Positions 2,782 through 41,902 of a DNA stretch of 44,829 nucleotides are shown one piece after another; within the stretch, counting starts at the first letter, position 1, and each line of letters starts with the position of its first letter. Position numbers and translations under genes: made by a program. The stretch is from the sequence record NC_042084.1. One strand, 5' to 3'. This stretch comes from Escherichia phage VB_EcoS-Golestan. Below the pieces are notes generated by a model. The model searched no databases. It saw nothing but the letters and a program-made list of their open reading frames with translations, and was not told the origin of the DNA.

Positions 2782-3858
2782 ATGCTATTAACTTTAGTAC
2801 CACAGGGTTTAACTATGAGCTTACTTACATCCCTCATCAGCCATCAGATATGGCTGCAACGCACCGCATCCGGTGAGGTGAAAGACCTCACACCGTTCAT
2901 TCAGGAGATGCGGGATGAAATCAAACGGCAGGTGCTGTTATTCGGCGACGACGGGCGAAGCACTGCGCGGCTGAATAAACTGTTACGGGACCTTGAAGAA
3001 GCACTGACAGGGATTACAGGTGACTGGCAAACAAAGCTGACAGAAGACCTCAAGGAACTGGCGGCATATGAGGCTGAGTGGAACGTAAAGACACTGACCG
3101 CCAACGTAGCTGCGGAATTTGTTACACCTACCGCTGAACAGGTGTGGGCTGCTGCCGAGTTTCAACCGTTATCGTTGAGCGACAAGCCTGTTGACTTCAC
3201 TAAGCTGATGTCAGGTTGGGGTGAAACCGAAGTCGCGCGCCTGGTAACGGGTGTTAAGATGGGCTTTGTTCAGGGTAAGACAACACGGCAGATTGTTACA
3301 GAAGTAGTCGGTAAAGGCGGGCTGGCTGACGTATCAGAGAAATACGCCGCTACCGTAATCCGCACTGCGCTGTCTCACGTGTCCAACGAAGCCCGCAATG
3401 AAACATACCGCCAGAACGACGATATCATCGAGAAGTACGAATGGGTGTCAACGCTGGACAGCCGTACCAGTACGATTTGCAGAGCCAGGGACGGAATGAC
3501 GTGGGAAATCGGTAAAGGTCCGATGCCGCCAGCGCATCCGAATTGTCGAAGCACCACGGCTCCGGTAATCAGTTCAGAGTTCGACTTCCTCGATAAAGGC
3601 GCAAAACGGGCGGCTAAGGGCGCTGACGGCGGCACTCAGGTAAGCGCGGACACAACATATTACGAGTTCCTTAAACAACAACCGGCATGGTTCGTGGATG
3701 AAGCACTCGGGCCGACCCGCGGTAAGATTTTCCGCAACAGCGGTATATCGCCGGAAGAGTTTCGCGTAATATCTGTAGATGGTTTCGGGAATCCGCTCAC
3801 GCTTAAGCAGATGGCGGAACTCGATAAACGTGTTGCTGATTATCTGAAAGGGGGATAA
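2782..3858 (+). CDS. Head morphogenesis protein (Mu F / SPP1 gp7-like minor head protein); start may be the ATG at 2814
   Basis: 358 aa; C-terminal PPAHPNCRST resembles the HPNCRC hallmark of MuF-like proteins (from memory); position after portal. Confidence 0.7.
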   Translation: MLLTLVPQGLTMSLLTSLISHQIWLQRTASGEVKDLTPFIQEMRDEIKRQVLLFGDDGRSTARLNKLLRDLEEALTGITGDWQTKLTEDLKELAAYEAEWNVKTLTANVAAEFVTPTAEQVWAAAEFQPLSLSDKPVDFTKLMSGWGETEVARLVTGVKMGFVQGKTTRQIVTEVVGKGGLADVSEKYAATVIRTALSHVSNEARNETYRQNDDIIEKYEWVSTLDSRTSTICRARDGMTWEIGKGPMPPAHPNCRSTTAPVISSEFDFLDKGAKRAAKGADGGTQVSADTTYYEFLKQQPAWFVDEALGPTRGKIFRNSGISPEEFRVISVDGFGNPLTLKQMAELDKRVADYLKGG

Positions 3859-4319
3859 TGATGGGCTTTTTCAAAGTAACTGATGTACCGTCGCGTCGCG
3901 TTGTCCAGTTTGCTCGCGTGTCTGGCTCCGGCGAGAACGTGGTGTCTATTGGGGACGAAAGTGTGCTGGGTACACCAGTAGACGATATGCCGTTTGCGGA
4001 TAAAACCGGTATTGCGCTACCCGCGGCAGGGATGCTTTACGAGATTCCGTATCTGGCGGACGCAGGCGATGTGTATCTCTCTGTACAACCGAAAGACACA
4101 GAACTGACAGACGGCAGCGCGACTATCACTGTCGAAGTTAAGGCCGGTAAAGCACCATACGCGCTGACCTGGTACAAAGACGGTAAGGAAGTGGTAAACG
4201 CCCCTGCAGAGGCTCTGTCTCTGACGGTTAACGCGGTGGGTGAATACTTCGTTAAAGTTACCGATGCCGATGGCGTAGAGGCCTTCAGTAAAGCGGCGAA
4301 GGTTATTAAGCCTGAATGA
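3858..4319 (+). CDS. Ig-like domain protein (probable virion surface/decoration protein)
   Basis: 153 aa; ATGA overlap with upstream gene; beta-rich motif LTWYKDGKEV...GEYFVKVTDADG similar to the ORF at 7627-7968. Confidence 0.55.
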   Translation: MMGFFKVTDVPSRRVVQFARVSGSGENVVSIGDESVLGTPVDDMPFADKTGIALPAAGMLYEIPYLADAGDVYLSVQPKDTELTDGSATITVEVKAGKAPYALTWYKDGKEVVNAPAEALSLTVNAVGEYFVKVTDADGVEAFSKAAKVIKPE

Positions 4320-4322
4320 TAA

Positions 4323-4350
4323 GAGGCCCCGAAAGGGGCTTTATTTTTAT
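4323..4350 (+). terminator. Rho-independent terminator
   Basis: AGGCCCC-GAAA-GGGGCT hairpin followed by TTATTTTTAT. Confidence 0.65.
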
Positions 4351-4414
4351 ATGAACATCGCGGTGATAACCGCAGCCGATACCCACAAAACAACATAAAA
4401 CATCACACTATTTG

Positions 4415-4759
4415 TCATTTGCATTTCTCGTCGTATGTTTGTTGTAACTGCGACAGACGATTACCGGCTGTCATCTCGTCCATAGAAGGCCCAGCGCCTG
4501 TGTCCATAAAGAACAGCGGAACAATCAGGAATGCGCCTGTAACACCGAGTACAACGTTAGTACCTATTTGCTTATTAACACGGTGCGTAGCGTTGGCTTG
4601 AGCTTGTTTTGTCGTGGCGATTCTCGATAGTAACTGATTACATGTTGCCGTTGTATCCCCCGCCTGATAAACCTGTAAAGCTGGGTCTGGCAACGACCTT
4701 ACGCAACCACTCAAACAAACGGCTACAACACCCGCTACTGCTAATTTAATATATTTCAT
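4415..4759 (-). CDS. Lipoprotein with C-terminal hydrophobic segment (candidate superinfection-exclusion or membrane moron)
   Basis: 114 aa; signal peptide with lipobox LSGC; hydrophobic stretch VVLGVTGAFLIVPLFFM; sits alone on the opposite strand within the structural region. Confidence 0.55.
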   Translation of the reverse strand: MKYIKLAVAGVVAVCLSGCVRSLPDPALQVYQAGDTTATCNQLLSRIATTKQAQANATHRVNKQIGTNVVLGVTGAFLIVPLFFMDTGAGPSMDEMTAGNRLSQLQQTYDEKCK

Positions 4760-4857
4760 AGTTCACCATTACCCGTGTCAATTTCACCAATACCACTACA
4801 AGCCCAAAGAAACATCACCGCATCAACTGCAATTACTACTGAAATAACGACTAACAT
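4756..4857 (-). CDS. Small hydrophobic peptide (33 aa) translationally coupled to the lipoprotein
   Basis: Hand-translated MLVVISVVIAVDAVMFLWACSGIGEIDTGNGEL; RBS GAGGAGG 6 nt upstream; stop overlaps lipoprotein ATG (ATGA). Confidence 0.3.
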   Translation of the reverse strand: MLVVISVVIAVDAVMFLWACSGIGEIDTGNGEL

Positions 4858-4884
4858 GACGGCCTCCTCGTTTCGATGTAATGA

Positions 4885-4913
4885 ATAGTACCCTATTATA
4901 TTGGTGTGTGCAA
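4885..4913 (-). promoter_or_regulatory. Family-1 promoter copy A (TTGCAC-N17-TACTAT) containing inverted repeat AATAG-N4-CTATT (4884-4897)
   Basis: About 35 bp near-identical to copies at 14121-14149, 37911-37939 and 39113-39141; lies just upstream of the lipoprotein cassette. Confidence 0.5.
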
Positions 4914-4979
4914 ACTATTTATTTACGTATTCCAGTTATTCCACTCAATTGTAAATGTTGGAATAAACTATTCGAATAG

Positions 4980-5008
4980 TTGACTTTTCACTAAAAATGT
5001 GCTAAGCT
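4980..5008 (+). promoter_or_regulatory. Sigma70-type promoter TTGACT-N17-TAAGCT with extended -10 TG; its -35 overlaps the perfect palindrome ACTATTCGAATAGT (4967-4980)
   Basis: Near-identical promoter at 37602-37630; both followed by the same transcribed leader. Confidence 0.6.
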
Positions 5009-5011
5009 CCA

Positions 5012-5063
5012 CCTGAGCTTGTGAAGTATGAACAAGCGACCGCGGCGCGGGCAGGTAACGGAG
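5012..5063 (+). other. Conserved promoter-proximal leader element, copy 1 (candidate cis-acting RNA, pause/antitermination site or 5' end of a small RNA)
   Basis: 38-nt block CCTGAGCTTGTGAAGTATGAACAAGCGACCGCGGCGCG identical to 37634-37671; contains hairpin GCTTGT-N9-ACAAGC. Confidence 0.5.
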
Positions 5064-5189
5064 CGGGACGTAAGGTCCTGAGTGTAGTTACGCTGACGCG
5101 TTCGGAAGGGCCATACTCTATTGCTTGTGTAAAAAGTAACGGGTTTACTGAGATTACGCCGTTTCTATGTTTAAATGATAAGGACTAGC

Positions 5190-5216
5190 GCCCCGCTTTA
5201 AGGCGGGGCTTTACTT
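5190..5216 (+). terminator. Terminator-like hairpin about 200 nt downstream of the 4980 promoter and upstream of the spanin genes
   Basis: GCCCCGC-TTTAAG-GCGGGGC followed by TTTACTTATC (imperfect U-tract). Confidence 0.4.
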
Positions 5217-5233
5217 ATCGAGAAAGGGGAAAC

Positions 5234-5620
5234 ATGAATCTTAAAGCAACTGTCGTAGCAGGAGCATGTTTCATCATCCTGGCTTACGCCCACGGCATTT
5301 ACCAGTATCGCAGCGGCTGGAGCGAAGGCCGGGCGAATCTCGTTTCGCAGCAACAGCAGAAAGCGCAGGCTGAGTTAGCGAAGAAAACACAACGGCAGCA
5401 GCAGGACGAATCAAAGGCCGCCGCCGCCGACAACGAAGGCAAGACGAAATCAGAGGTGATTACCCGTGAAGTCGTTAAATACATTAAAACGCCAGGTCGC
5501 AGCGTGTGCACTTTTGACCCTGAGCGCGTGCAGCTCAAGTCCCGCGCCGTCGCCAACGCCAATTCCATCCCCGGATACGACGATGATGCAGCCGCCGTGC
5601 AAACTGGCGCAGCCAAGTAG
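5234..5620 (+). CDS. i-spanin (Rz-like inner-membrane spanin)
   Basis: 128 aa; N-terminal TM helix, Gln/Ala-rich coiled-coil periplasmic region; o-spanin-like lipoprotein ORF overlaps in another frame. Confidence 0.55.
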   Translation: MNLKATVVAGACFIILAYAHGIYQYRSGWSEGRANLVSQQQQKAQAELAKKTQRQQQDESKAAAADNEGKTKSEVITREVVKYIKTPGRSVCTFDPERVQLKSRAVANANSIPGYDDDAAAVQTGAAK

Positions 5621-5729
5621 CGACGCTGATGAGGATTTGGCCGTCGACGTTCAGAATGCTGAATGCGTACGGCAACTGAGACTGAAAGTGTTCATGTTGC
5701 AGGATTACGTGAGGAATATTCTGGAATAG
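5466..5729 (+). CDS. o-spanin (Rz1-like outer-membrane lipoprotein), overlapping architecture, GTG start
   Basis: 87 aa; lipobox LSAC, proline-rich mature region (SPAPSPTPIPSP); begins inside and extends beyond the i-spanin ORF; RBS AGAGGTGA. Confidence 0.6.
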   Translation: MKSLNTLKRQVAACALLTLSACSSSPAPSPTPIPSPDTTMMQPPCKLAQPSSDADEDLAVDVQNAECVRQLRLKVFMLQDYVRNILE

Positions 5730-11650: not shown

Positions 11651-11682
11651 AACTAAGGCCCCTTTCGGGGCCTTTTTCTTAC
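11651..11682. terminator. Bidirectional rho-independent terminator
   Basis: AAGGCCCC-TTTC-GGGGCCTT flanked by an A-run and a T-run; separates convergent major tail gene and kinase gene. Confidence 0.6.
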
Positions 11683-12233
11683 AAACCTAATTTTAAAGCA
11701 ATGTCTATAACGTTCGATTTAACGTCACCCGGTATGATGTAGGTGTCGTAATCTTTTACACCACTAACATCATACAGATAGCCACGGCTATCGCCGATGA
11801 ACGTATAGCCGTCACGATGGAGGCGAACGATTTGCACGTCATGCCCTGCGGCGACGATAGGGGTAACTTCGCTGGCGAACCCACCATCGGACACCACAAA
11901 AACTTCGCCGCCGTCGGGCAAGTTCCCGGAAAGATACTTACCGAAATAATCATCGCCGAATACCGGTTTAACGAATTGCTCAGAAATGGCAATCATGAAC
12001 TGGCGACGAGATAACCCATTAAGGAAATCTTCTGGCTTTTCTTTCCGCGCCCGGTCGTCGTAGCCGTCGAGAAAGTCGTGGTAAGCATCCTGGCCTAACG
12101 CTGCCAAAGCAATATTGAACATCGGATTCTTGAAACGGGTAGTTCCTTTCGCAAAGCCCATCTCTACCAGCGCCCTAGCAAGTGTGTCTTTCCCACAACC
12201 AGCAGGGCCATTAAGAATAATTACCTTAGCCAT
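11679..12233 (-). CDS. P-loop NTPase / nucleotide or polynucleotide kinase-like protein
   Basis: 184 aa; Walker A GPAGCGKDT near N-terminus; coupled (ATGA overlap) to the upstream HAD phosphatase. Confidence 0.6.
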   Translation of the reverse strand: MAKVIILNGPAGCGKDTLARALVEMGFAKGTTRFKNPMFNIALAALGQDAYHDFLDGYDDRARKEKPEDFLNGLSRRQFMIAISEQFVKPVFGDDYFGKYLSGNLPDGGEVFVVSDGGFASEVTPIVAAGHDVQIVRLHRDGYTFIGDSRGYLYDVSGVKDYDTYIIPGDVKSNVIDIALKLGL

Positions 12234-12721
12234 TACTTATCACTCCCGTGTGATTTTAAGTGTGTAGAGTCCCCGTTACAGTCGTACTCAGTGACCGCGT
12301 GTGTCGTGATTCCTAAGCCACGGAAATGCTTAATCACCGCGGGAGAGTCGTCGAATGCGCACAAGATTCTTTCCAGTCCGAAAGCACGCAACACCTCTTC
12401 TTTAATTACGATGTCTTTTCTGTTGTCGTGTTTGCTGCGCATGATTAGCGTGTCAAACCTAACGTTATTCTCTCGTAACCATTCGCGAGTCTCCTCCTCA
12501 GCGTCATCACTTCGCCCGGTAAGGATAATTATAGTAAGTCCGGAATGCCACAGTACGCTACACAAATGGATATTGTCGTATATCGGAGCGTCATCTTTGC
12601 AGGCCATGTTAAATGGCTTCCACGCCCACGTTTCTCCGTAGTTATCTTTTGGTAACAGGTGTAAGCGATGGGTACCGTCGGCCAATGTCCCGTCTAAATC
12701 GAAAATTACAATATCTTTCAT
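12233..12721 (-). CDS. HAD-superfamily phosphatase (polynucleotide 3'-phosphatase / nucleotidase-like)
   Basis: 162 aa; HAD motifs FDLDGT (DxDGT), ILTGR, and DD (CAFDDS). Confidence 0.7.
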   Translation of the reverse strand: MKDIVIFDLDGTLADGTHRLHLLPKDNYGETWAWKPFNMACKDDAPIYDNIHLCSVLWHSGLTIIILTGRSDDAEEETREWLRENNVRFDTLIMRSKHDNRKDIVIKEEVLRAFGLERILCAFDDSPAVIKHFRGLGITTHAVTEYDCNGDSTHLKSHGSDK

Positions 12722-13848
12722 CCCAGCATCTCCGGTGAAATAGTTAAACGTGCGACCTCGCCATATTCGGCGCTATAAGTAATTACATTTGCACTGCGGC
12801 CCGACATCCATCCGCCGCGAGAGGCGTAGGCGTCTTTAGCCGCTAAGGTGCGGTGTTGCTCAACAATCATGTTACGGCTTTCTACAATCTTCTGGTGGTG
12901 CAGATGGCCTACGTGGGCGTAGCTGTAAACACTCTCGCCGAACGCTTTACGGAACTTGGCAATCATAACCGGTTCGATAGCGTCGAATCGTGCTTTATGC
13001 CCGTGATGGAAGAACAGCGTCGTTTTGCCGTGTTGCACCATCTTATAAACATCCGGCGACGTATCGACGAATACACGAGGCTCGTTGTCGTACAGTGTGC
13101 TGAACATCTCCGCCAGCCAAATCATCCCGGATTCGTCGTGGTTCCCCTGAACTATAAGCAAGCGAACAGTTTTATGCTTAACCAGAGCCATATCAACAAC
13201 ACGGCGGACCATGCGAATCATGTAGCGGACAAGTTTCTGGTAACGCGTGTCGGCGTCAAGGACATGACCACTCGCCGGTGTAACGGCGTCAAGACTATCG
13301 AAGTGAGCTAAGTCGCCAAGAAGATTAATAACCCCCGTACCTGCATCCGGTGCTTTCTGAAACGCAGCATCAAACCAACGAGAGAATAAGTCCTCCGCGA
13401 TTTTCATATCCCAGTCGTCGCCGCTCTCGTCAGCCCAGGCTAACATACCGAGATGGAAATCAGACACGGTGTACAGGTTAAGCAGCTTGTCGTCACGTTT
13501 AGCCCGGGCGGCCTTAACTGGCGGAACGGGAGTAATCTCCGACTTCATGCCTTCGACTACGGCTTTCATCAACTCAACCTGACGTTCGGCATCGGTGTCT
13601 GTCTTAACCCACTGCAACTTAGTGTTACCGAACTCGTCCACCAGAGACGACGTGCCTTTAATCTTGTAGCCGTCTGGTACAAGGTGGCTTACGTCCCGCC
13701 CGTGGCCTACGCCTTTCTTAGCCAGCTTCGCTTTACGGATTCGGATAACGCGGTCTGAGATTCCGTATTTACGGGCGATATCGATATTCTTCATCCCGGC
13801 GTTCAATTCTTCCTGTAATTGCTCGTCGGTTATTTTCTTCTGGGCCAT
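12718..13848 (-). CDS. HTH-containing calcineurin-like metallophosphoesterase (Mre11/SbcD-fold nuclease or phosphodiesterase candidate); start set at ATG 13848
   Basis: Metallophosphoesterase motifs DFH, GDLAHFD, GNHDE, HHGH, GHLHH; N-terminal HTH-like segment; RBS GAGGAAG before ATG 13848 (ORF-track start 13953 would overlap the next gene). Confidence 0.75.
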   Translation of the reverse strand: MAQKKITDEQLQEELNAGMKNIDIARKYGISDRVIRIRKAKLAKKGVGHGRDVSHLVPDGYKIKGTSSLVDEFGNTKLQWVKTDTDAERQVELMKAVVEGMKSEITPVPPVKAARAKRDDKLLNLYTVSDFHLGMLAWADESGDDWDMKIAEDLFSRWFDAAFQKAPDAGTGVINLLGDLAHFDSLDAVTPASGHVLDADTRYQKLVRYMIRMVRRVVDMALVKHKTVRLLIVQGNHDESGMIWLAEMFSTLYDNEPRVFVDTSPDVYKMVQHGKTTLFFHHGHKARFDAIEPVMIAKFRKAFGESVYSYAHVGHLHHQKIVESRNMIVEQHRTLAAKDAYASRGGWMSGRSANVITYSAEYGEVARLTISPEMLG

Positions 13849-13886
13849 GCTTACTTCCTCGTGTTTAGGATTTGTCTTATAGTAGC

Positions 13887-14078
13887 CTACTTCTCTTTCA
13901 CGTTCGAGTTGCAAGCCCAGATTAAAATGAATACCCACGGCAACAGAATCCACCCGAGAAATAAGTTAGCCATGAATATCGCCAGCTTTGCTTTATGGTT
14001 ACGCATATGGGCCACCAAAAACGGGATAAAATAAACGGCTACAAAAATAATTAAGAAGAACATAGTGATACCGGTCAT
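13887..14078 (-). CDS. Small two-TM membrane protein, superinfection-immunity (Imm)-like; start set at ATG 14078
   Basis: 63 aa; RBS AGGAG; motif NLFLGWILLPWVFILIWA recalled as characteristic of the Imm family. Confidence 0.5.
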   Translation of the reverse strand: MTGITMFFLIIFVAVYFIPFLVAHMRNHKAKLAIFMANLFLGWILLPWVFILIWACNSNVKEK

Positions 14079-14120
14079 AACATAACTCCTGATTTGAGAT
14101 AACATCGTCGGTGTAAGTGA

Positions 14121-14149
14121 ATAGTACGCTATTATATTGGGGTGTGCAA
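14121..14149 (-). promoter_or_regulatory. Family-1 promoter copy B (TTGCAC-N17-TACTAT) with inverted repeat AATAG-N4-CTATT (14120-14133)
   Basis: Near-identical to copies A, F and H; upstream of the accessory cassette. Confidence 0.5.
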
Positions 14150-19307: not shown

Positions 19308-19669
19308 ATATTAACGACTACACGGGAATACCTTACGACTTTCGCAAACGCAATTGCTGGCATCACGTTCGCATTGTACGGGCCGATGCCGGGTTAGAAA
19401 CCCCGGCGTTCGACGTTACAAGCCCAACGGCGATTAACGAAGCGTTCGACGAAGGCCATCGTGACACGAAGGGGCTTACGAAGATTGATAAGCCTGAAAA
19501 CTTCTGTGCGGTGCTTATGGGGTATCGCCGTGGCGGTCGTATCGTGTGGCACGCGGGAGTTTACTTCGACGGGATGGTGAGTCATTGCGAGCTTGCGTCC
19601 CGTCAGGTACGACTTGACCGGCTGGCGGACCTCAGAGACACGTACACGGAGATTGAATTTTGGCGATAA
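19304..19669 (+). CDS. Tail assembly protein with NlpC/P60-like Cys/His motif (gpK-like)
   Basis: 121 aa; NCWHHV and WHAGVYFDGMVSHCE resemble papain-like NlpC/P60 catalytic Cys and His. Confidence 0.5.
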   Translation: MNINDYTGIPYDFRKRNCWHHVRIVRADAGLETPAFDVTSPTAINEAFDEGHRDTKGLTKIDKPENFCAVLMGYRRGGRIVWHAGVYFDGMVSHCELASRQVRLDRLADLRDTYTEIEFWR

Positions 19670-22227
19670 TCCTGCACTACACGCGAAATGCCGACGGGGC
19701 TTTCGACCGTACAAAACACGTCGGGATGCCGATGGAGTTTGTCGTTAACCGTATCCCGGACGGCGTTCCGGTACGCGTCTATCTTGGCGAGATTGGTGAT
19801 GATACTGATGTTACAGACGACTTCGACGCGCTCAAAGACGAGGACGCCGTGTACCACATTATTGAGGGCGCTGGCGGCGGCATTGGCGACGCCCTTGGGA
19901 GTGTATTCAGTTTCATCCTTAAGCCAATCGCCAAATTGTTCGGGCTAAACACAGCGGCTAACGCTAATTATTCCGCTACCAACAATCAGGCTACGTCGCC
20001 TAACAACAGTCTCACCGACCGCTCAAACAAGCCACGACCTTATGAGCGTTCTTATGATATCTGCGGGACAGTGCAGACCATCCCCAATGACCTGATGCAA
20101 ACATATAAGGTGTTTAATGCCGCGGGTGCGCTTATTGAATATGCGTACTATGACGCCGGTCGAGGGTATCTGCATATTGAGGAAGACGGTGTAACTGAGG
20201 CAGATACCCGAATCAGCGAGATAACTGGCTCGTCGGTGGCGGTGTATTCCCCTTACACTTCGCCGAATAACACCAACGCCCCACAATTGCATATTGGCGA
20301 CCCGATAGACCAGAAATTGTACGTTACATTTAAAAACGCCGATGTCGATGGCGCTGTTCTTCCCGCCCCTAATGATATCGCTATAGACGTGCAGGACTAC
20401 ACTGTCCAGCGGCAGGGAACAACCGGCGTTGTAATAGGCGATGACGCTGGTTTCGATGAGTTTTTGGCTGTCGGAGACCTGGCATATTTCGATAACGTAT
20501 ATGCGGACACAACTCCTGGGTCTTTAGGTAATGAGGTTAACTTAGACGGGAGGTACACTGTTCTTTCTGTTAGTGAAACGACCCTTATTGTGGACGTCAG
20601 TACAAATCAATCAATATGGAACCAGCTAGGGTCATCGGTGTGGTTTATAGGTGAAGAGGGTAACCATCTCATAGGTCCGGCGGACACTTACGCGGCTTCC
20701 CTCTCTGAATGGGCGTACATCACCCGCGGTACGGTCAACCGTGTTGTAGCCAATGTCGCCGCCAGCAACGGCATGTATAAATATAACGGCGATTATAACC
20801 GTGCCTCCGTTACGGTGGAACTGCAATACCAGATGGTGGACGAATTGAAACAGCCCGTTGGTGGCATATTCACCGTGCAAGGCACTGTTACAGGGAGAAA
20901 CACCGATTACACTGGTATTACCCTATACGGAAGCTTGCCTACCGCTTCCAGATTCCGCGCCCGTATGCGCCGTGTTTCCGATACTGATAAAGATTTTGAG
21001 GGTACTGTTAGCGACGAGGTTACTTTCACTAATCTGTACGGGCAGTCACTGGATACAACCCCGCACTACGGCAACCGCACTACTGTACACTGCGCTCGTA
21101 AACAAACCCCACGTGCCGCCGAGGTGTCAGAACCGGAACTGCGCATGATTGCTACCGAGATGTGCTACAAATACTTAGGTAACGGCGTATTCGATACGGT
21201 AATGACACCGAACACTCAGGCCGTGCAGTCGCTAATCAGGCTGGCGCGTGACCCTGTGGTGGGTAATCTGGAACTGACAACGGCAAACATGGACAAGTTA
21301 CTCGCTGTGCAGGAAGAAATTGAATCCTATTTTGGAAGTGAATTAGCGGGGCAGTTCTGCTACACGTTCGACGACTACGACACCACGATGCAGGACATCG
21401 TTCAGACCATCGCGGAAGCCGTTTTCTGTACTGCGTACCGTAAAGGTGCGGATATTATGCTGCGATTTGATCGTCCGGTTGCGGGGCCCGAAATGGTGTT
21501 CACCCACCGCAGCAAAACGACCGGTACGGAGAAATGGACGCGCACGTTCAACGATTCGACAACCTACGATAGCCTGTCGTTCTCGTACATTGACCCGGAT
21601 ACAAACGTACAGGAGACGATTTATATCCCGGAAGAACTCGGCGCGAACACCGAGGAGTACGAATCGAAGGGTGTACGTAACTATCAGCAAGCGTACTGGC
21701 TGGCGTGGCGTCGCTACCAGCGCAACACGTTAAGTAAAGTTGTCGTAGAGTTCGAAGCTACCGAAGAAGGCGCTCTCGCTACTCCCGGCGGCGTAATCAG
21801 CGTGGTTAAAGGTTCACGTATCGCGCCTCAGGATGGTTATGTTGTTGCCGTTAATGGGCTTACGCTGACACTGTCGCAACCTGTTACGTTTACCCCCGGC
21901 GATGACCACTCCATCATCCTCAAGAAGCGCGATGGCTCCGTGCAGAGTATTTCTGTTATCAAAGGAAGCCACGACCGCGAGGTGATTATGCTCTCCGCGC
22001 CGGAGGAGGCAATCTACACGGGGAATAGCGCACTAAAAACTGAGTTTTCATTCGGCAACGAAGCAAGGCATAATGCTCAGAAGATAGTTGTTTCTTCAAT
22101 CGACCCCGGCGACGACCGCACGGTCAAGATTACTGGTTACAACTATGACGACGGATTCTATAAATACGACGGCGTCGCGCCATACGGCAGCAGCTTCTCC
22201 GACGGATTCAGCAATGGTTTTAATTAA
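19660..22227 (+). CDS. Tail tip / host specificity protein (gpI/gpJ-like central fibre); TTG start, alternative ATG at 19729
   Basis: 855 aa; Gly-rich segment GAGGGIGDALG near N-terminus; large beta-rich protein after the gpK-like gene. Confidence 0.55.
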   Translation: MAIILHYTRNADGAFDRTKHVGMPMEFVVNRIPDGVPVRVYLGEIGDDTDVTDDFDALKDEDAVYHIIEGAGGGIGDALGSVFSFILKPIAKLFGLNTAANANYSATNNQATSPNNSLTDRSNKPRPYERSYDICGTVQTIPNDLMQTYKVFNAAGALIEYAYYDAGRGYLHIEEDGVTEADTRISEITGSSVAVYSPYTSPNNTNAPQLHIGDPIDQKLYVTFKNADVDGAVLPAPNDIAIDVQDYTVQRQGTTGVVIGDDAGFDEFLAVGDLAYFDNVYADTTPGSLGNEVNLDGRYTVLSVSETTLIVDVSTNQSIWNQLGSSVWFIGEEGNHLIGPADTYAASLSEWAYITRGTVNRVVANVAASNGMYKYNGDYNRASVTVELQYQMVDELKQPVGGIFTVQGTVTGRNTDYTGITLYGSLPTASRFRARMRRVSDTDKDFEGTVSDEVTFTNLYGQSLDTTPHYGNRTTVHCARKQTPRAAEVSEPELRMIATEMCYKYLGNGVFDTVMTPNTQAVQSLIRLARDPVVGNLELTTANMDKLLAVQEEIESYFGSELAGQFCYTFDDYDTTMQDIVQTIAEAVFCTAYRKGADIMLRFDRPVAGPEMVFTHRSKTTGTEKWTRTFNDSTTYDSLSFSYIDPDTNVQETIYIPEELGANTEEYESKGVRNYQQAYWLAWRRYQRNTLSKVVVEFEATEEGALATPGGVISVVKGSRIAPQDGYVVAVNGLTLTLSQPVTFTPGDDHSIILKKRDGSVQSISVIKGSHDREVIMLSAPEEAIYTGNSALKTEFSFGNEARHNAQKIVVSSIDPGDDRTVKITGYNYDDGFYKYDGVAPYGSSFSDGFSNGFN

Positions 22228-22239
22228 AGAGGACTCTAT

Positions 22240-24225
22240 ATGTCAAGCGGATGCGGTGACGTTTTAAGCCTGGCGGATTTACAGACCGCCAAGAAACATC
22301 AGATTTTCGAGGCCGAGGTTATCACTGGCAAATCCGGCGGTGTAGCTACGGGTGCAGACATTGATTACGCAACAAATAAGGTTACCGGGCAGACGCAGAA
22401 GACGCTTCCTGCCGTGTTGCGCGACGCGGGTTTTTCTCCGGTGTCATGGGATTTCTCCACAGGCGGCACGTTAACCGTTAACGACCGGGACAAGGTGGTG
22501 TATGACCCTGTTAGCAAAACATGGTACTCGTACGCAGGTACGTTACCAGTTGTTGTCCCTGCATCGTTTAATCCAGTCGGTAACGCTAACTGGAAGCCGC
22601 AGACAGACCCAAATTTGCGTAATGATTTGGCGTCAAGTACCGCCGGTTTGGGGGCTTCACTGGTGTCTTTTTCCAACGGTAACACCGTTGAAACATTATC
22701 TGACGCGGACGGTGCCAAGAACATAGGCAGCGGCGAAAGGAGTTTGCTTGCACGTAACAATGATATTAAGCATTCAGGAGACTTCTCTACCCTGCAAGCT
22801 GCAGTAGATGCATCGTTACAGAAAAATGACTTACTTATTTCCCCTGGTGAATATACTGAAAAAGTTACTATTGGTAGCGCACAGTTAAAAGGCGTTGGCG
22901 GGGCTGTAGTACTAAAAACACCAGCAGACTTTACAAACACTGTTCAGGTTAATTTATCGACGCCTCATTGGCAATTCCGCCATAGTGGCGGTTTTGCTAT
23001 AGATGGTTCTGGTACAACCGGGGCCGTAGGTATTAGTTTTGACCCGTCAGACCAATATTCCGGACGTCATAATTTTAGTGATTTATACATACACAACATC
23101 AACAAGGCAATTCAGAAGCCTTCCGGGAACATCGGTAATACATGGAGAAATATTGGGGTATCTACGTGTGATTGGGGGTATTACGCGATTAGTGGCTCAG
23201 AGATGCATTGCGGGGCCGATACCCTCTACAATATCCACTTCGACGGCATCTCCGCCTATGCCGTCTACCTAAACGGCACTGTCGATAACGGCGGGATAGG
23301 CGGATGGTGGCTTAAAGACTCCATTATTGAGGCTTCCGGAGGCGGCGGGATATATTTAAAAAGCAAATCAGGTGACTGCCCTATATCTCCATGCGGGGTA
23401 TCCAATGTATGGACGGAAGCGATTGCAACATCATCGGCTGTTCAGGTAGACGGCGTGGCGCAAAAACCGCGAGTTCTCAAGTTGGTAGACACCGCGATAT
23501 TCTTTGCTGAGTATTCTTATCTCAATAACATCGAGCTATCCAACTCCAACTTAGTAACTTATGGTTGCCGTTTTGACAACGCCGATGGTAATCAGGATAT
23601 TGTAGTGGATGCACAAAGCACCATCGTAGCCCACGACGTGTATTTAAACGGCAGTTCTGGAAAGGACGTTATTGTAGAGTCTGTCGCGTCGCAATCCGCA
23701 ACGGTAGCCACTACAAACTTGTCTCTGCGAGGAAATTTAACAAGGGGACGAGTGTTTAATACGCCGACGGGGAATAAGTTAAAAGCTATCACATTTGACT
23801 CAGGTAGCCATAATTTTTCTGGTAGCGGTACCGTTAACGGTTCGACTGTATCTGACGGACTTCACGCCGCTACATGTACCGAATTTTCATTCCCTGGGTC
23901 CGGTTTATATGAAATGGTAGCGTCAAGAACGACACTTACATCCGGTAGATGGTACGTGTGGGGCGTCAACTCTCGCCTCCAATCAGGAACAGCAGATGTG
24001 AGTATAACGTCAGGTATTACTATGGGTAGCGTTTATACTAAGTCTGGTGAGTGGATTAGCACATTTGGGGTGGGTAAAGCTTCCGCTAACGGTACTGTAA
24101 GTCTGTACGTCTCTACTGCGGGAGGTTCAGGTGCTGTTATCAGATTTAGCGACTTCTTCATCGCTGAGTTTACGACGCAGGCTCAGGCTTTAGCTTTCGC
24201 TAACTCCAGAATGTCGTTGGCTTAA
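22240..24225 (+). CDS. Tailspike / receptor-binding protein with beta-helix depolymerase-like body
   Basis: 661 aa; last structural gene; Gly/Asn/Ser-rich repetitive beta strands (e.g. GGWWLKDSIIEASGGGGIYLKSKSG). Confidence 0.6.
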   Translation: MSSGCGDVLSLADLQTAKKHQIFEAEVITGKSGGVATGADIDYATNKVTGQTQKTLPAVLRDAGFSPVSWDFSTGGTLTVNDRDKVVYDPVSKTWYSYAGTLPVVVPASFNPVGNANWKPQTDPNLRNDLASSTAGLGASLVSFSNGNTVETLSDADGAKNIGSGERSLLARNNDIKHSGDFSTLQAAVDASLQKNDLLISPGEYTEKVTIGSAQLKGVGGAVVLKTPADFTNTVQVNLSTPHWQFRHSGGFAIDGSGTTGAVGISFDPSDQYSGRHNFSDLYIHNINKAIQKPSGNIGNTWRNIGVSTCDWGYYAISGSEMHCGADTLYNIHFDGISAYAVYLNGTVDNGGIGGWWLKDSIIEASGGGGIYLKSKSGDCPISPCGVSNVWTEAIATSSAVQVDGVAQKPRVLKLVDTAIFFAEYSYLNNIELSNSNLVTYGCRFDNADGNQDIVVDAQSTIVAHDVYLNGSSGKDVIVESVASQSATVATTNLSLRGNLTRGRVFNTPTGNKLKAITFDSGSHNFSGSGTVNGSTVSDGLHAATCTEFSFPGSGLYEMVASRTTLTSGRWYVWGVNSRLQSGTADVSITSGITMGSVYTKSGEWISTFGVGKASANGTVSLYVSTAGGSGAVIRFSDFFIAEFTTQAQALAFANSRMSLA

Positions 24226-34221: not shown

Positions 34222-34437
34222 ATGCAACCATCTGAACTAGGCATTCGTGTAGAACAACGCCGTAAAGAACTCGGCATCTCCCAGCGCCGTCTGGCGGTCC
34301 TGACCGGCGTTTCCCAGGGCGCAATTAACCAGCTGGCTCTCGGTGTAACTCAGGACGTCCGCCCGGCAACGTTGTTTAAACTGGCGGAAGTGCTGGAAGT
34401 AGACGCTAAGTGGCTGGCGTTCGGTGAAGGGGCTTGA
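34222..34437 (+). CDS. Cro/C1-type (XRE family) helix-turn-helix transcriptional regulator
   Basis: 71 aa; ELGISQRRLAVLTGVSQGAINQL is a classic HTH; RBS AAGGAG; terminator overlaps the stop. Confidence 0.7.
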   Translation: MQPSELGIRVEQRRKELGISQRRLAVLTGVSQGAINQLALGVTQDVRPATLFKLAEVLEVDAKWLAFGEGA

Positions 34438-37081: not shown

Positions 37082-37315
37082 CTAGCGTTGGGGTTTCTTT
37101 TGCCTACGTGCCGCATTAATCCACTCTCCTTCGCTCTGGTAGAAACTGCAATCAAGAATATCCTCTATAGAAAATTTAACTATTTTAGTGGGTCCACAAA
37201 AGTTATAAGGGAAAAGTTCTACATAACACCCATCGTCGGTTATATTTGACGCAATCTTGAAATAATATTTAATGCTGTCGTCTTCACGGAAGCTACAACC
37301 CATACGCCCAATCAT
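37082..37315 (-). CDS. Hypothetical protein
   Basis: 77 aa; ATGA coupling to the upstream HTH gene. Confidence 0.4.
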   Translation of the reverse strand: MIGRMGCSFREDDSIKYYFKIASNITDDGCYVELFPYNFCGPTKIVKFSIEDILDCSFYQSEGEWINAARRQKKPQR

Positions 37316-37500
37316 TTCACGTTCTCCTTAATCCACGCTTCAACTTTATTACGGTCAAATGTTCCTGGTAAACGGCGCCCCATAACTTTAATACAGCAGT
37401 CAGGGAATTTACCACTGCGTAACCAGTTATTAATTGTCTGACGTGTTACCCCGATACGTTCTGCTACTTCATTCTGGGTCATGTAATGTTGCATTTTCAT
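37312..37500 (-). CDS. AlpA/excisionase-like helix-turn-helix DNA-binding protein; start set at ATG 37500
   Basis: MTQNEVAERIGVTRQTINNWLRSGKFP HTH; RBS AGGAG before ATG 37500; first gene of the - strand replication operon. Confidence 0.55.
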   Translation of the reverse strand: MKMQHYMTQNEVAERIGVTRQTINNWLRSGKFPDCCIKVMGRRLPGTFDRNKVEAWIKENVK

Positions 37501-37601: not shown

Positions 37602-37630
37602 TTGACTTTTACTAAAAAATATGGTAAGCT
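37602..37630 (+). promoter_or_regulatory. Sigma70-type promoter TTGACT-N17-TAAGCT with extended -10 TG (paralog of 4980-5008)
   Basis: Near-identical to the 4980 promoter; followed by the same leader. Confidence 0.6.
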
Positions 37631-37633
37631 CAG

Positions 37634-37690
37634 CCTGAGCTTGTGAAGTATGAACAAGCGACCGCGGCGCGCGGCAGGCGAAACGAGCAC
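37634..37690 (+). other. Conserved promoter-proximal leader element, copy 2
   Basis: 38 nt identical to 5012-5049, then similar but diverged sequence. Confidence 0.5.
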
Positions 37691-37799
37691 GTGTAGCGTG
37701 TGGAGTGAGGCTCGCTAGCGCGTTTGGGAGGCCCAAAGTCTATTGTAAATCCCACCTAAATATCTAAGTTACTGATTTGCCGTAGGTCAGAACCGCAAG

Positions 37800-37826
37800 C
37801 TCACTCACTCACTCACTCACTCACTC
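37800..37826. repeat. Tetranucleotide microsatellite (CTCA)6 followed by hairpin GGTGCC-TTCG-GCACC (37831-37846)
   Basis: Direct read: CTCACTCACTCACTCACTCACTCACTC. Confidence 0.9.
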
Positions 37827-37910
37827 TTGGTGCCTTCGGCACCACGTTCGTTTCGTTTCGCTCGCCATCCCATTAAACGAAAGAATCACAACGGCAACGT
37901 AACTATTCTC

Positions 37911-37939
37911 TTGCACACCCCAACATAATAGGATACTAT
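37911..37939 (+). promoter_or_regulatory. Family-1 promoter copy F (TTGCAC-N17-TACTAT) with inverted repeat AATAG-N4-CTATT (37927-37940)
   Basis: Near-identical to copies A, B and H; upstream of the small-gene block starting at 37975. Confidence 0.5.
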
Positions 37940-40865: not shown

Positions 40866-41174
40866 TTGGATAAATTTACTGAAACAGTGACAGGCTGGCT
40901 TCTCGCTGCCGCACTGGTCGGTGGATTGGTCGGACTAAGACAACATAAAAAGTCTATATCCGGGCCGATTGACGGACTGGTATTTCTTCTCACCGGCTTC
41001 GCGTGTGCCATTTTCGGTGCACCTCTTGCTGCTCAATGGTTCGGTATTACCGGTGAGCGCGAGATAGCTGGCCTCGGATTCATCATTGCCATTCTCTGGA
41101 TGCCTATCTATTCCCGCCTTTCTGGCATCGTATCGGGCGGCGATATTGCCCGCCCAGGAGGACCGCATGACTGA
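40866..41174 (+). CDS. Holin (three predicted TM segments), TTG start
   Basis: 102 aa; RBS GGAGGA 7 nt upstream; hydrophobic segments; upstream of endolysin. Confidence 0.6.
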   Translation: MDKFTETVTGWLLAAALVGGLVGLRQHKKSISGPIDGLVFLLTGFACAIFGAPLAAQWFGITGEREIAGLGFIIAILWMPIYSRLSGIVSGGDIARPGGPHD

Positions 41175-41439
41175 GCTATTCTGGTTTGTCGTAATGCTTT
41201 CAATTGGCGCTTCGTCCCTGTTCAACGTGTATAACGAACACGTGGACGACGGGCTGTTCGGGCGTGTGCTTTATATTCTGACTGCTATTGTCTGCGCCGC
41301 CGGATGTATCCACCTGTTACAGGGCAGCATGTCACCGACGCTGCCTGAGACATTAATCACATTAGTTGCGCTGCGTCAGATTCGTCAGGCGTGGCTGTCG
41401 TACGGAGGGCATAAGCGTGTCTCGAAACATTTCAGATAA
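41167..41439 (+). CDS. Second lysis-associated membrane protein (holin/antiholin-like)
   Basis: Two or three hydrophobic segments; overlaps the holin stop and the endolysin start. Confidence 0.45.
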   Translation: MTELFWFVVMLSIGASSLFNVYNEHVDDGLFGRVLYILTAIVCAAGCIHLLQGSMSPTLPETLITLVALRQIRQAWLSYGGHKRVSKHFR

Positions 41440-41902
41440 TGGGTTGCATTTCACCGCAGCATTTGAGGGATTCCGCGGAACCGCGTATCGCGCTACACCG
41501 AACGAGAAGTACCTTACGATTGGGTATGGTCACTACGGGCCGGACGTTAAGGCGGGGCAGACCATCACACCGGGACAAGGACTCCTGTTACTGAATCGTG
41601 ATATGGCTAAGGCTGTAGCCGCAGTTGATGCGGCAGCACACCATTCGCTTACACAGGCACAGTTCGACGCAGTGTGCGACCTGGTGTATAACGCTGGTGC
41701 CGGTGTGATTGCGGCTACTACTGGCACAGGTAAGGCACTGCGTTCTGGTGACGTCACGACTCTGCGGGCTAAGCTGGCGCTGTTCATCAACCAGAACGGC
41801 AAACCGATACTTGGACTGCGTCGTCGTACCGCCGGTCGTCTGGCGCTGTTCGACGGTAAACCGTGGCAGGAGGCGGAGGCTATCGGGAGGGCTGTTAGAT
41901 GA
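41417..41902 (+). CDS. Endolysin, GH24 lysozyme-like; start set at GTG 41417
   Basis: FEGFRGTAYRATPNEKYLTIGYGH matches the GH24 lysozyme N-terminal pattern; RBS GGAGGG before GTG 41417. Confidence 0.75.
   Translation: MSRNISDNGLHFTAAFEGFRGTAYRATPNEKYLTIGYGHYGPDVKAGQTITPGQGLLLLNRDMAKAVAAVDAAAHHSLTQAQFDAVCDLVYNAGAGVIAATTGTGKALRSGDVTTLRAKLALFINQNGKPILGLRRRTAGRLALFDGKPWQEAEAIGRAVR

What the first reader, a model, noticed from the sequence alone, without database searches (positions are those of the whole stretch)
4415..4913. Lipoprotein plus hydrophobic mini-ORF on the opposite strand between head-gene blocks: candidate superinfection-exclusion cassette
A 114-aa lipoprotein (lipobox LSGC, C-terminal hydrophobic segment) and an overlapping 33-aa hydrophobic peptide are transcribed against the flanking structural genes from a family-1 promoter. 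Small phage lipoproteins in this arrangement (T5 Llp, T1/phi80 Cor) block the phage's own receptor. The spanins are encoded elsewhere, so a lysis role is less likely.
Basis: inference. Interest (0 to 1): 0.55.

Follow-up and report, generated by a model that had tools for sequence, protein, structure and literature searches.

The report
Phage lipoprotein cassette, likely exclusion
A small operon that this E. coli phage reads backwards between its head genes encodes an exported, lipid-anchored protein of a large uncharacterised family, and relatives of it sit in other phages and conjugative elements exactly where genes that block incoming DNA normally sit, so a role in shutting out rival phages is plausible but unproven.

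Summary
The window is Kagunavirus vB_EcoS_SCS44. The cassette is real: a promoter-like element, a strong ribosome-binding site, a 33-aa membrane peptide (4857-4756), a 114-aa lipoprotein (4759-4415, lipobox LSGC) and a terminator, all on the minus strand. It is translationally coupled to the lipoprotein and under purifying selection. This peptide, not the 33-aa ORF, travels with the lipoprotein.

The lipoprotein belongs to phrog_13472, a large family with no Pfam, NCBIfam or PADLOC model. It is predicted to be a helical hairpin, probably stapled by a Cys40-Cys113 disulfide, with a near-invariant hydrophobic tip. That segment is therefore not a transmembrane span.

The closest relatives lie in P22-like prophages directly after the ejection-protein genes, which is the sieA slot. 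Others follow traG in an integrative conjugative element or sit beside integrases. Many distant members are plain chromosomal genes.

There is no homology to Llp, Cor, Rtp45, TraT, Bor or SieA. Kagunaviruses depend on glycan receptors, so receptor masking is not favoured. The best reading is an early accessory module that blocks DNA entry at the envelope (confidence 0.4). It would be a new variant of a known kind, of moderate interest.

The parts
4882..4919 (-). Promoter-like element: -35-like TTGCAC (4913-4908), 17-nt spacer, -10-like TACTAT (4890-4885). It overlaps the palindrome AATAG-GGTA-CTATT (4897-4884), a candidate operator.
   Evidence: Sequence read. A 94%-identical copy lies at 14118-14149(-) and a related copy at 37918-37935(+). 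It is conserved in many Guernseyvirinae while the cargo downstream varies. A PHIRE 'phage promoter' is annotated at the same place in fBC-Eco01. The sigma-70 consensus scan does not call it.
4863..4869 (-). Shine-Dalgarno sequence GAGGAGG, 5 nt upstream of the ATG of the 33-aa ORF.
4756..4857 (-). 33-aa membrane peptide MLVVISVVIAVDAVMFLWACSGIGEIDTGNGEL: a hydrophobic helix with an acidic tail. It is a separate gene, not tied to the lipoprotein.
   Evidence: Present alone in phage K1H (17/33 identical, frame kept). Absent from the metagenomic copy that keeps the lipoprotein. Variable sites by codon position are 1/3/6 among 10 copies. Its start codon is ACG in CP088689.1.
4415..4759 (-). 114-aa lipoprotein precursor of the phrog_13472 family.
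   Evidence: Substitutions against L028 fall 22/10/51 by codon position. AF2 with 150 sequences gives pLDDT 86.8, with helices at 40-78 and 90-112.
4703..4759 (-). Signal peptide and lipobox L-S-G-C (Cys19 codon 4705-4703). The +2 residue is Val, so no Asp retention signal.
   Evidence: Cys in 148/150 homologues; +2 is A, G or V and never D. Outer-membrane sorting is inferred from the E. coli +2 rule (established knowledge).
4502..4558 (-). Near-invariant hydrophobic tip N68-VVLGVTGAFLIVPLFFM-D86. The Cys40 codon is 4642-4640 and the Cys113 codon is 4423-4421.
   Evidence: Among 150 homologues: N68 148, G75 149, P81 143, D86 146. Cys40 and Cys113 are lost together (141 both, 4 neither, 3 and 2 single; Fisher p = 2.5e-5).
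4347..4424 (-). 23/25-aa membrane peptide (MQ)MTNSVMFYVVLWVSAAVITAMFI. Its start overlaps the lipoprotein stop (ATGA).
   Evidence: Conserved in L028. Differences fall 3/3/14 by codon position, with 9 synonymous and 5 conservative codon changes; the other two frames contain stops. It is not found next to family members elsewhere.
4323..4342 (.). GC-rich hairpin terminator shared with the convergent Hoc-like gene.
   Evidence: The same hairpin directly follows the 33-aa ORF in K1H, which marks the lipoprotein + 23-aa pair as an insertion of about 415 bp.

Best explanation
This is an accessory operon that the host RNA polymerase probably reads early, from a promoter/operator element shared with other early units of the phage.

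Its main product is exported, lipidated at Cys19 and probably sorted to the inner face of the outer membrane. There it forms an antiparallel helical hairpin, stapled at its base by a Cys40-Cys113 disulfide. A 17-residue hydrophobic tip lies at the other end.

The most likely role is exclusion at the envelope. The protein would hinder a second phage from building its DNA-delivery conduit across the periplasm and inner membrane after it has bound its glycan receptor. It would not mask a protein receptor.

The coupled 23-aa peptide is probably an inner-membrane helper specific to this phage lineage. The 33-aa peptide is an independent small membrane protein in the same slot.

What is shown: gene reality, the lipobox, family membership, the conserved residues, Cys covariation and the genomic positions. 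What is inferred: early timing, outer-membrane location, the disulfide, and the exclusion function with its step.
For: 1. The closest relatives occupy the sieA position of P22-like prophages, after gp7-gp20-gp16 and before Arc/Mnt/Ant/tailspike. This holds in several distinct prophages. In Yersinia-type prophages the gene lies between internal virion proteins and the tail spike. The slot is defined in PMC10883804 sec. 13 and PMC4837284.
2. A Deferribacteres homologue directly follows traH-traG in two ICE variants and precedes variable defence cargo. In F, traS/traT follow traG (established knowledge).
3. Other copies lie next to a CI-like repressor or an integrase.
4. The promoter element is shared with the phage's Imm_superinfect gene, PF14373 at 51 bits against a cutoff of 27.9.
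5. The gene is carried by only 8 of about 300 related phages, in a slot whose cargo varies, which is moron-like behaviour.
6. Lipobox, signal peptide and Cys covariation place the whole mature protein in the periplasm.
7. No copy of either gene type was found by DNA search in 5,426 complete E. coli genomes, so the enterobacterial examples recovered here all lie on mobile elements.
Against: There is no homology to any proven exclusion protein.

Most distant family members are single chromosomal genes among housekeeping neighbours, with no conserved partner. The ancestral function is therefore probably not exclusion.

The most conserved part is the hydrophobic tip, from Planctomycetes to Enterobacteria. 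That argues for a conserved host target or self-assembly rather than recognition of a fast-evolving invader.

In other Kagunaviruses the same slot carries DNA-metabolism genes, so the slot itself says nothing about function.

The phage already has an Imm_superinfect gene. Early timing is inferred only from shared promoter motifs. There are no experimental data.
Confidence: 0.4

Rival explanations
1. Receptor masking in the manner of T5 Llp, T1 Cor or Rtp45. The lipoprotein would bind the periplasmic face of an outer-membrane protein that the phage needs, and change its surface loops so that further phages cannot bind.
For: It is a small lipoprotein with an intramolecular disulfide, as Llp and Cor are (PMC9586334). 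It is predicted to sort to the outer membrane. It is transcribed against the late genes from its own promoter. The hydrophobic tip could fit a barrel or a lateral gate.
Against: No sequence or fold similarity to Llp or Rtp45 was found, although both are in the libraries searched. The gene is not next to the J-like or tailspike genes at 19660-24225. Kagunaviruses are reported to depend on glycans, with no known protein receptor (PMC11990801). The same family occurs in P22-like podoviruses and in an ICE, which would not share one receptor.
Confidence: 0.15
2. An envelope-conditioning factor rather than an exclusion factor. On this view it is a captured bacterial lipoprotein that alters or stabilises the outer membrane of the infected or lysogenic cell, comparable to Bor/Iss, the serum-resistance role of TraT, or SlyB-type membrane lipoproteins. 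The benefit would be to the carrier cell or to the infection cycle.
For: The family is widespread in chromosomes of many diderm phyla, with housekeeping neighbours and no partner gene. Rhizobium megaplasmids carry it. The conserved hydrophobic tip suggests insertion into a membrane leaflet or self-assembly.
Against: No match to Bor, TraT, SlyB or glycine-zipper models was found. A host-fitness factor makes little sense for a virulent phage. The positions in prophages and the ICE are those of exclusion genes.
Confidence: 0.25
3. An accessory regulator of lysis, such as an antiholin, a spanin modulator or a lysis-timing factor, placed next to the spanin genes.
For: The cassette lies 375 bp from Rz/Rz1 (5234-5729). 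It encodes a lipoprotein and two small membrane peptides, the kinds of proteins found in lysis systems.
Against: It is on the opposite strand with a different promoter class. Nearly all relatives that have the same spanins, holins and lysozyme lack it. Homologues in prophages and the ICE are not near lysis genes. There is no similarity to spanin or holin PHROGs.
Confidence: 0.07
4. A passenger with no function in this phage. The mini-ORFs would be chance ORFs and the lipoprotein a recently acquired hitch-hiker.
For: The distribution is rare (8 phages). The 33-aa ORF has lost its ATG in one copy. Among the closest copies, the 23-aa ORF shows only non-synonymous changes.
Against: The lipoprotein protein is almost invariant across 8 phages from three continents, with variable sites 2/0/6 by codon position. 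Against L028, both the lipoprotein and the 23-aa ORF show strong third-position bias. The promoter, ribosome-binding site, coupling and terminator are all intact.
Confidence: 0.05

Closest known systems
T5 Llp, T1/phi80 Cor and Rtp45: superinfection-exclusion lipoproteins of small siphophages
   Same: A small phage-encoded lipoprotein with a probable intramolecular disulfide, predicted to face the periplasm from the outer membrane. It is made from its own transcription unit among late genes and is not part of the virion.
   Different: No sequence or fold relationship. It is larger (95 against about 60 mature residues), all-helical, and has a hydrophobic tip. The gene is not adjacent to the receptor-binding gene. 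No protein receptor is known for this phage (PMC11990801, PMC9586334, PMC12685063).
P22 SieA
   Same: Homologues of the lipoprotein occupy the same genomic position, between ejection gene 16 and the tailspike gene, in P22-like prophages. SieA blocks DNA injection after adsorption in tailspike phages (PMC10883804).
   Different: SieA is a multi-pass inner-membrane protein with a cytoplasmic motif and is unrelated in sequence. The resemblance is one of position only.
F-plasmid TraT/TraS and ICE Eex entry or surface exclusion
   Same: One homologue directly follows traG in an ICE. TraT is also an outer-membrane lipoprotein.
   Different: No match to TraT or other Pfam models. The gene order of F is taken from established knowledge and was not tested here.
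Ltp of Streptococcus phage TP-J34
   Same: A lipoprotein that blocks DNA injection after adsorption by acting on the incoming phage's tape measure (cited in PMC10883804; PMC3952083). This is the mechanism favoured here.
   Different: Gram-positive, surface-exposed, a different fold, and no sequence similarity.
Lambda Bor / Iss
   Same: A small lipoprotein moron with a hydrophobic stretch near its C-terminal half.
   Different: No match to the Bor Pfam model. Bor is a lysogenic-conversion serum-resistance factor.
Imm_superinfect (PF14373), the T4 Imm-like family
   Same: This phage has a true member at 14078-13887, driven by the same promoter element.
   Different: The lipoprotein and the two peptides do not match PF14373.

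Membership tests
phrog_13472 / unnamed diderm lipoprotein family | Full-length profile match | tested here: met
   E = 1.2e-44 over residues 3-114. A profile search found 1464 representative clusters at E <= 1e-3.
phrog_13472 / unnamed diderm lipoprotein family | Lipobox Cys, D35, the Cys40/Cys113 pair, the N68...G75...P81...D86 hydrophobic motif, R101 and L105 | tested here: met
   All are present in the window protein.
Llp/Cor/Rtp45 receptor-masking lipoproteins | Sequence or structural similarity to Llp, Cor or Rtp45 | tested here: not met
   A PDB profile search at E <= 10 gave only two chance hits. Foldseek against PDB gave no hit with E <= 0.001. No Cor-type PHROG or Pfam hit was found.
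Llp/Cor/Rtp45 receptor-masking lipoproteins | Small lipoprotein with an intramolecular disulfide | tested here: met
   The lipobox is present. The disulfide is inferred from Cys covariation, p = 2.5e-5.
Llp/Cor/Rtp45 receptor-masking lipoproteins | Gene adjacent to the receptor-binding protein gene | tested here: not met
   The cassette is at 4.3-4.9 kb and the tail tip and tailspike genes at 19.6-24.2 kb.
Llp/Cor/Rtp45 receptor-masking lipoproteins | The phage uses an outer-membrane protein as terminal receptor, and the lipoprotein binds it | not testable with these tools
   The literature reports glycan dependence for Kagunavirus (PMC11990801). Binding needs experiments.
P22 SieA | Multi-pass inner-membrane protein with the FxRYPxEAxxFNK motif | tested here: not met
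   The protein is a lipoprotein with no such motif (PMC10883804 sec. 13). Only the genomic position of the homologues matches.
TraT (PF05818) and Bor (PF06291) | Match to the Pfam model | tested here: not met
   A Pfam scan at E <= 0.1 gave only a sub-threshold T2SSF hit.
o-spanin (Rz1) | Lipoprotein gene embedded in or following an i-spanin gene, with a spanin profile match | tested here: not met
   The true Rz/Rz1 pair is at 5234-5729(+), matching phrog_2536 at 8.5e-57 and phrog_5672 at 2.3e-30. The 114-aa protein matches no spanin PHROG.
Imm_superinfect (PF14373) | Match to the Pfam model | tested here: not met
   None for the three cassette products. The separate gene at 14078-13887 does match.
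Known anti-phage defence proteins (PADLOC) | Match to any PADLOC model | tested here: not met
   No hit at E <= 1.
Superinfection exclusion (functional class) | Expression reduces infection or DNA entry by the same or related phages | not testable with these tools
   Needs plating, adsorption and DNA-entry assays.

The most novel reading that the evidence does not exclude
The phrog_13472 lipoproteins would be a general envelope barrier to incoming DNA. Unrelated mobile elements would have recruited it independently: a virulent siphovirus, P22-like prophages at the sieA slot, an F-type ICE next to traG, and small integrase islands. It would act through its invariant hydrophobic hairpin tip on a conserved host envelope component rather than on the invader. 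One small protein would then limit both phage DNA injection and conjugative entry.
Probability: 0.15. Interest if true: 0.75.

Novelty: new variant of a known kind. Interest (0 to 1): 0.45.

Why it matters
Phage lipoproteins that exclude superinfection are known for only a few receptor-specific cases: Llp and Cor acting on FhuA, and Rtp45 acting on LptD. A new, structurally different family would widen that picture. It is carried by glycan-dependent tailspike phages, by prophages at the sieA slot and by a conjugative element.

It would also point to a step after adsorption that can be blocked from the periplasm. It would give a first functional handle on a family of more than 1400 sequence clusters that has no model in Pfam, NCBIfam or PADLOC.

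There are practical consequences too. Kagunaviruses are candidates for therapy and synthetic biology, and an exclusion cassette affects the design of phage cocktails.

Tried and rejected
- **Profile libraries.** Pfam, NCBIfam and PADLOC scans of all three products gave nothing usable. Pfam scans of ten longer family members found no fused domain. One member has a weak SHOCT tail.
- **Structure prediction.** The first AF2 run, with 21 sequences, was too uncertain to use (pLDDT 59.7). It was replaced by a 150-sequence run.
- **Fold and sequence searches.** Foldseek against PDB and BFVD gave no significant match. The afdb50 library was not available. A PDB sequence-profile search gave chance hits only.
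- **E. coli genomes.** No copy of the cassette or of the prophage-type gene was found in complete E. coli genomes.
- **Conserved partner gene.** None was found across 55 bacterial loci. A Pfam census of 96 neighbouring proteins showed mostly unrelated housekeeping genes. This weakens a family-wide link to mobile elements.
- **Small hydrophobic ORF next to other family members.** None was found.
- **Promoter.** The sigma-70 scanner does not call it. The obvious TATAAT has no -35 element at a workable distance, so it was rejected in favour of TTGCAC-17-TACTAT, by comparison with six related promoters.
- **RNA.** Rfam found nothing in 4300-5300. The leader RNA upstream of the spanins folds no better than shuffles (z = -1.55).
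- **HSE2 annotation.** 'Putative structural protein' was rejected because an exported lipoprotein cannot enter a virion assembled in the cytoplasm.
- **Hydrophobic segment as a transmembrane span.** Rejected because the two flanking cysteines covary.

Full report
**What the window is.** It is Escherichia phage vB_EcoS_SCS44 (ON001686.1; Kagunavirus, Guernseyvirinae). The length is the same, and it differs from the record at 220 substitution sites. The finding lies between the Hoc-like decoration gene (3858-4319, +) and the Rz/Rz1 spanin pair (5234-5729, +). The spanins are followed by the scaffold and major capsid genes. The holins and lysozyme are far away at 40866-41902.

**Anatomy, read on the minus strand.**
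- A promoter-like element at 4919-4882, then the ribosome-binding site GAGGAGG (4869-4863).
- A 33-aa ORF (4857-4756).
- A 114-aa ORF (4759-4415), whose ATG overlaps the previous stop (ATGA).
- A 23/25-aa ORF (4424 or 4418 to 4347), again starting on the ATGA that ends the lipoprotein gene.
- A GC-rich hairpin (4342-4323) shared with the convergent Hoc-like gene.

The 114-aa product starts MKYIK-LAVAGVVAVC-LSG-C19, a textbook SPase II signal. The +2 residue is Val. By the E. coli +2 rule (established knowledge) this predicts sorting to the outer membrane.

**Are the ORFs genes?**
- *Lipoprotein.* It matches phrog_13472 at E = 1.2e-44. It is almost invariant in all carriers, with variable sites 2/0/6 by codon position. 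Against an 82%-identical metagenomic copy (L028) the differences fall 22/10/51 by codon position.
- *23-aa ORF.* It is kept in L028 with differences 3/3/14 by codon position. Nine codon changes are synonymous and five conservative, and the other two frames contain stops. It is therefore a real, selected gene.
- *33-aa ORF.* It is less constrained. It is absent from L028. It is present alone, diverged but in frame, in K1H, with 17/33 identical residues and the hydrophobic helix and ...SG..D.GNGEL tail kept. Its ATG is ACG in one copy.
- *The insertion.* K1H has the same promoter, the 33-aa ORF and the same terminator, with nothing between them. The lipoprotein and 23-aa pair is therefore an insertion of about 415 bp into an older small unit.

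**The slot.** Only 9 records (8 phages) of about 300 related Guernseyvirinae records carry the cassette. One further copy is a 44-kb 'plasmid' of an E. coli blood isolate that is in fact a Kagunavirus genome. The promoter region 4863-4990 is conserved widely, but the cargo behind it differs:
- a 67-aa acidic protein in Bas74;
- an endonuclease VII-like protein in Salmonella phage L223;
- a clamp/RusA-like protein in Schulenburg.

The slot is thus a general accessory position and carries no functional label of its own.

**Regulation.** The element at 4882-4913 recurs at 94% identity at 14118-14149. That copy lies directly upstream of a minus-strand unit whose first gene is a true Imm_superinfect protein (PF14373, 51 bits against a cutoff of 27.9). 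A third copy precedes the rightward early genes at 37921. Alignment with four other promoters in the replication region shows a common palindrome, AATAG-N4-CTATT, over the spacer and -10 region. It also identifies TTGCAC-17-TACTAT as the likely hexamers. The consensus scanner does not call this promoter. Early, co-regulated expression is an inference from these shared motifs.

**The lipoprotein family.** A word-indexed search found 20 homologues. A profile search found 1464 representative clusters at E <= 1e-3 and 713 at <= 1e-10. None carries a Pfam, NCBIfam or PADLOC model. Members occur across diderm phyla: Alpha-, Beta- and Gammaproteobacteria, Deferribacteres, Planctomycetes, Nitrospinae, Omnitrophota and Desulfobacterota.

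Conserved features among 150 aligned sequences:

| Feature | Count of 150 |
|---|---|
| Lipobox Cys19 | 148 |
| D35 | 150 |
| Cys40 | 144 |
| N68 | 148 |
| G75 | 149 |
| P81 | 143 |
| D86 | 146 |
| E94 | 143 |
| R101 | 148 |
| L105 | 144 |
| Cys113 | 143 |

The residues between N68 and D86 are uniformly hydrophobic and individually conserved (consensus NVALGV[AT]GAFLIVP[WL]FFMD).

AF2 with the deep alignment gives pLDDT 86.8, with helices at 40-78 and 90-112. Conserved a/d-type positions on both helices fit an antiparallel coiled-coil hairpin.

Cys40 and Cys113 are lost together far more often than chance allows: 141 sequences have both, 4 neither, and 3 and 2 have one only (Fisher p = 2.5e-5). 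This implies a disulfide, so both flanks of the hydrophobic stretch are in the periplasm. The stretch is therefore the tip of the hairpin and not a transmembrane span.

No significant fold match exists in PDB or BFVD, and no sequence match to any solved chain. The Kagunavirus protein is a minimal form of the family. It ends one residue after Cys113, whereas the median tail elsewhere is 23 residues, rich in K, E, A and P.

**Where relatives sit.**
- The closest relatives (39-45% identity) are all in prophages of Enterobacterales.
- In P22-like prophages the gene directly follows the ejection genes gp7-gp20-gp16. It precedes Arc/Mnt/antirepressor and the tailspike.
- That is the position P22 uses for sieA (PMC10883804 sec. 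13; gene table in PMC4837284; called the 'ant moron' in PMC2629481).
- In Yersinia-type prophages it lies between internal virion proteins and a tail spike or fibre.
- In a Seleniivibrio/Deferribacteres element it directly follows traH and traG in two variants. It is followed by different defence cargo: SNF2/methylase, OLD-like or BREX-like. In F, the exclusion genes traS/traT follow traG (established knowledge).
- Other copies lie beside a CI-like repressor, beside integrases or on a small resistance plasmid.

**The caveat from chromosomal copies.** Many distant members are lone chromosomal genes among housekeeping neighbours, with no recurrent partner. Rhizobium megaplasmids also carry the gene. 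The family is thus an ordinary bacterial envelope lipoprotein that mobile elements have picked up repeatedly. It is not a dedicated mobile-element family. Neither the phage gene nor the prophage-type gene was found by DNA search in 5,426 complete E. coli genomes.

**Mechanism.**
- *Shown:* an exported, lipidated, periplasmic hairpin protein with an invariant hydrophobic tip. It is co-inherited with a 23-aa membrane peptide in this phage lineage only. Elsewhere, relatives lie in positions typical of genes expressed to protect the carrier cell.
- *Inferred:* the protein acts at the envelope to stop incoming DNA.

I favour a block after adsorption, for two reasons. Kagunaviruses and P22-like phages both bind glycans with tailspikes, and no protein receptor is known for Kagunavirus (PMC11990801). 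The prophage copies also replace sieA, which blocks the ejection-protein conduit (PMC10883804).

The strong conservation of the tip across phyla suggests a conserved host partner, a membrane leaflet or self-assembly as the contact, rather than direct recognition of the invader. That is the main reason confidence stays at 0.4. It is also why the envelope-conditioning rival gets 0.25. Receptor masking (0.15), lysis regulation (0.07) and a functionless passenger (0.05) follow.

**Comparison and novelty.** In function the cassette resembles the exclusion lipoproteins Llp, Cor and Rtp45, and in its proposed step it resembles Ltp and SieA. It fails every homology-based membership test for those families. 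It is a member of phrog_13472, whose function is unknown.

If the exclusion role holds, this is a new variant of a known kind. If not, it is an ordinary accessory envelope gene. Interest is moderate, at 0.45. The bolder reading, a general barrier to DNA entry reused by phages and conjugative elements, is not excluded (probability about 0.15).

Noticed in passing
window 13887-14149 (-): A true Imm_superinfect gene (PF14373, 63 aa, 14078-13887) heads a minus-strand unit. The unit also holds a metallophosphoesterase, a polynucleotide kinase and a dNMP-kinase-like gene (11679-14078) and is wedged between tail genes. Its promoter element (14118-14149) is 94% identical to that of the lipoprotein cassette.
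   Followed up: partly
window 4980-5215 (+) and 37602-37830 (+): Two copies of a sigma-70-like promoter (TTGACT-17-TAAGCT), each followed by a conserved leader of about 70 nt (89% identity). Copy A ends in a strong terminator (5190-5209) just before the spanin genes. This could be a small RNA or a regulatory leader. There is no Rfam match, and the fold z-score is only -1.55. Some relatives annotate a 37-aa ORF here.
   Followed up: partly
window 37800-37823 (+): A (CTCA)6 tetranucleotide repeat lies inside copy B of that leader and is absent from copy A.
   Followed up: no
window 27467, 31235, 34128, 34177, 37921, 4884, 14120: A family of promoters shares the palindrome AATAG-N4-CTATT over the spacer and -10 region. 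This is probably a common operator for a phage repressor. HTH genes lie at 34222-34437 and 37312-37500.
   Followed up: partly
CP088689.1 (L091), E. coli C16EC0033 'plasmid' pC16EC0033-2: A 44,086-bp circular, non-mobilizable 'plasmid' from a human blood isolate is a complete Kagunavirus genome carrying this cassette. That suggests a carrier state or contamination. In this copy the start of the 33-aa ORF is ACG.
   Followed up: partly
L002 (phage K-02) and L090 (phage HSE2): Public annotations of the cassette are unreliable. K-02 has five small plus-strand ORFs called across it. HSE2 calls the lipoprotein a 'putative structural protein'. No record annotates the 23/25-aa ORF.
   Followed up: yes
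L008-L011 (Seleniivibrio/Deferribacteres ICE): Identical lipoprotein genes are followed by three different defence cargos: SNF2 + DUF4391 + methylase + restriction enzyme, SNF2 + OLD-like ATPase, and BrxA/BREX-like. The gene therefore marks the border between the conserved transfer module and a variable defence island.
   Followed up: partly
L017:1869-2306: In one environmental prophage a second, unrelated lipoprotein (phrog_4487) lies between the CI-like repressor and the family member, giving a pair of lipoprotein morons in the immunity region.
   Followed up: no
whole window: The window differs from ON001686.1 at 220 sites, all of them substitutions with no indels. Two fall in the cassette (4580 and 4859).
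   Followed up: yes
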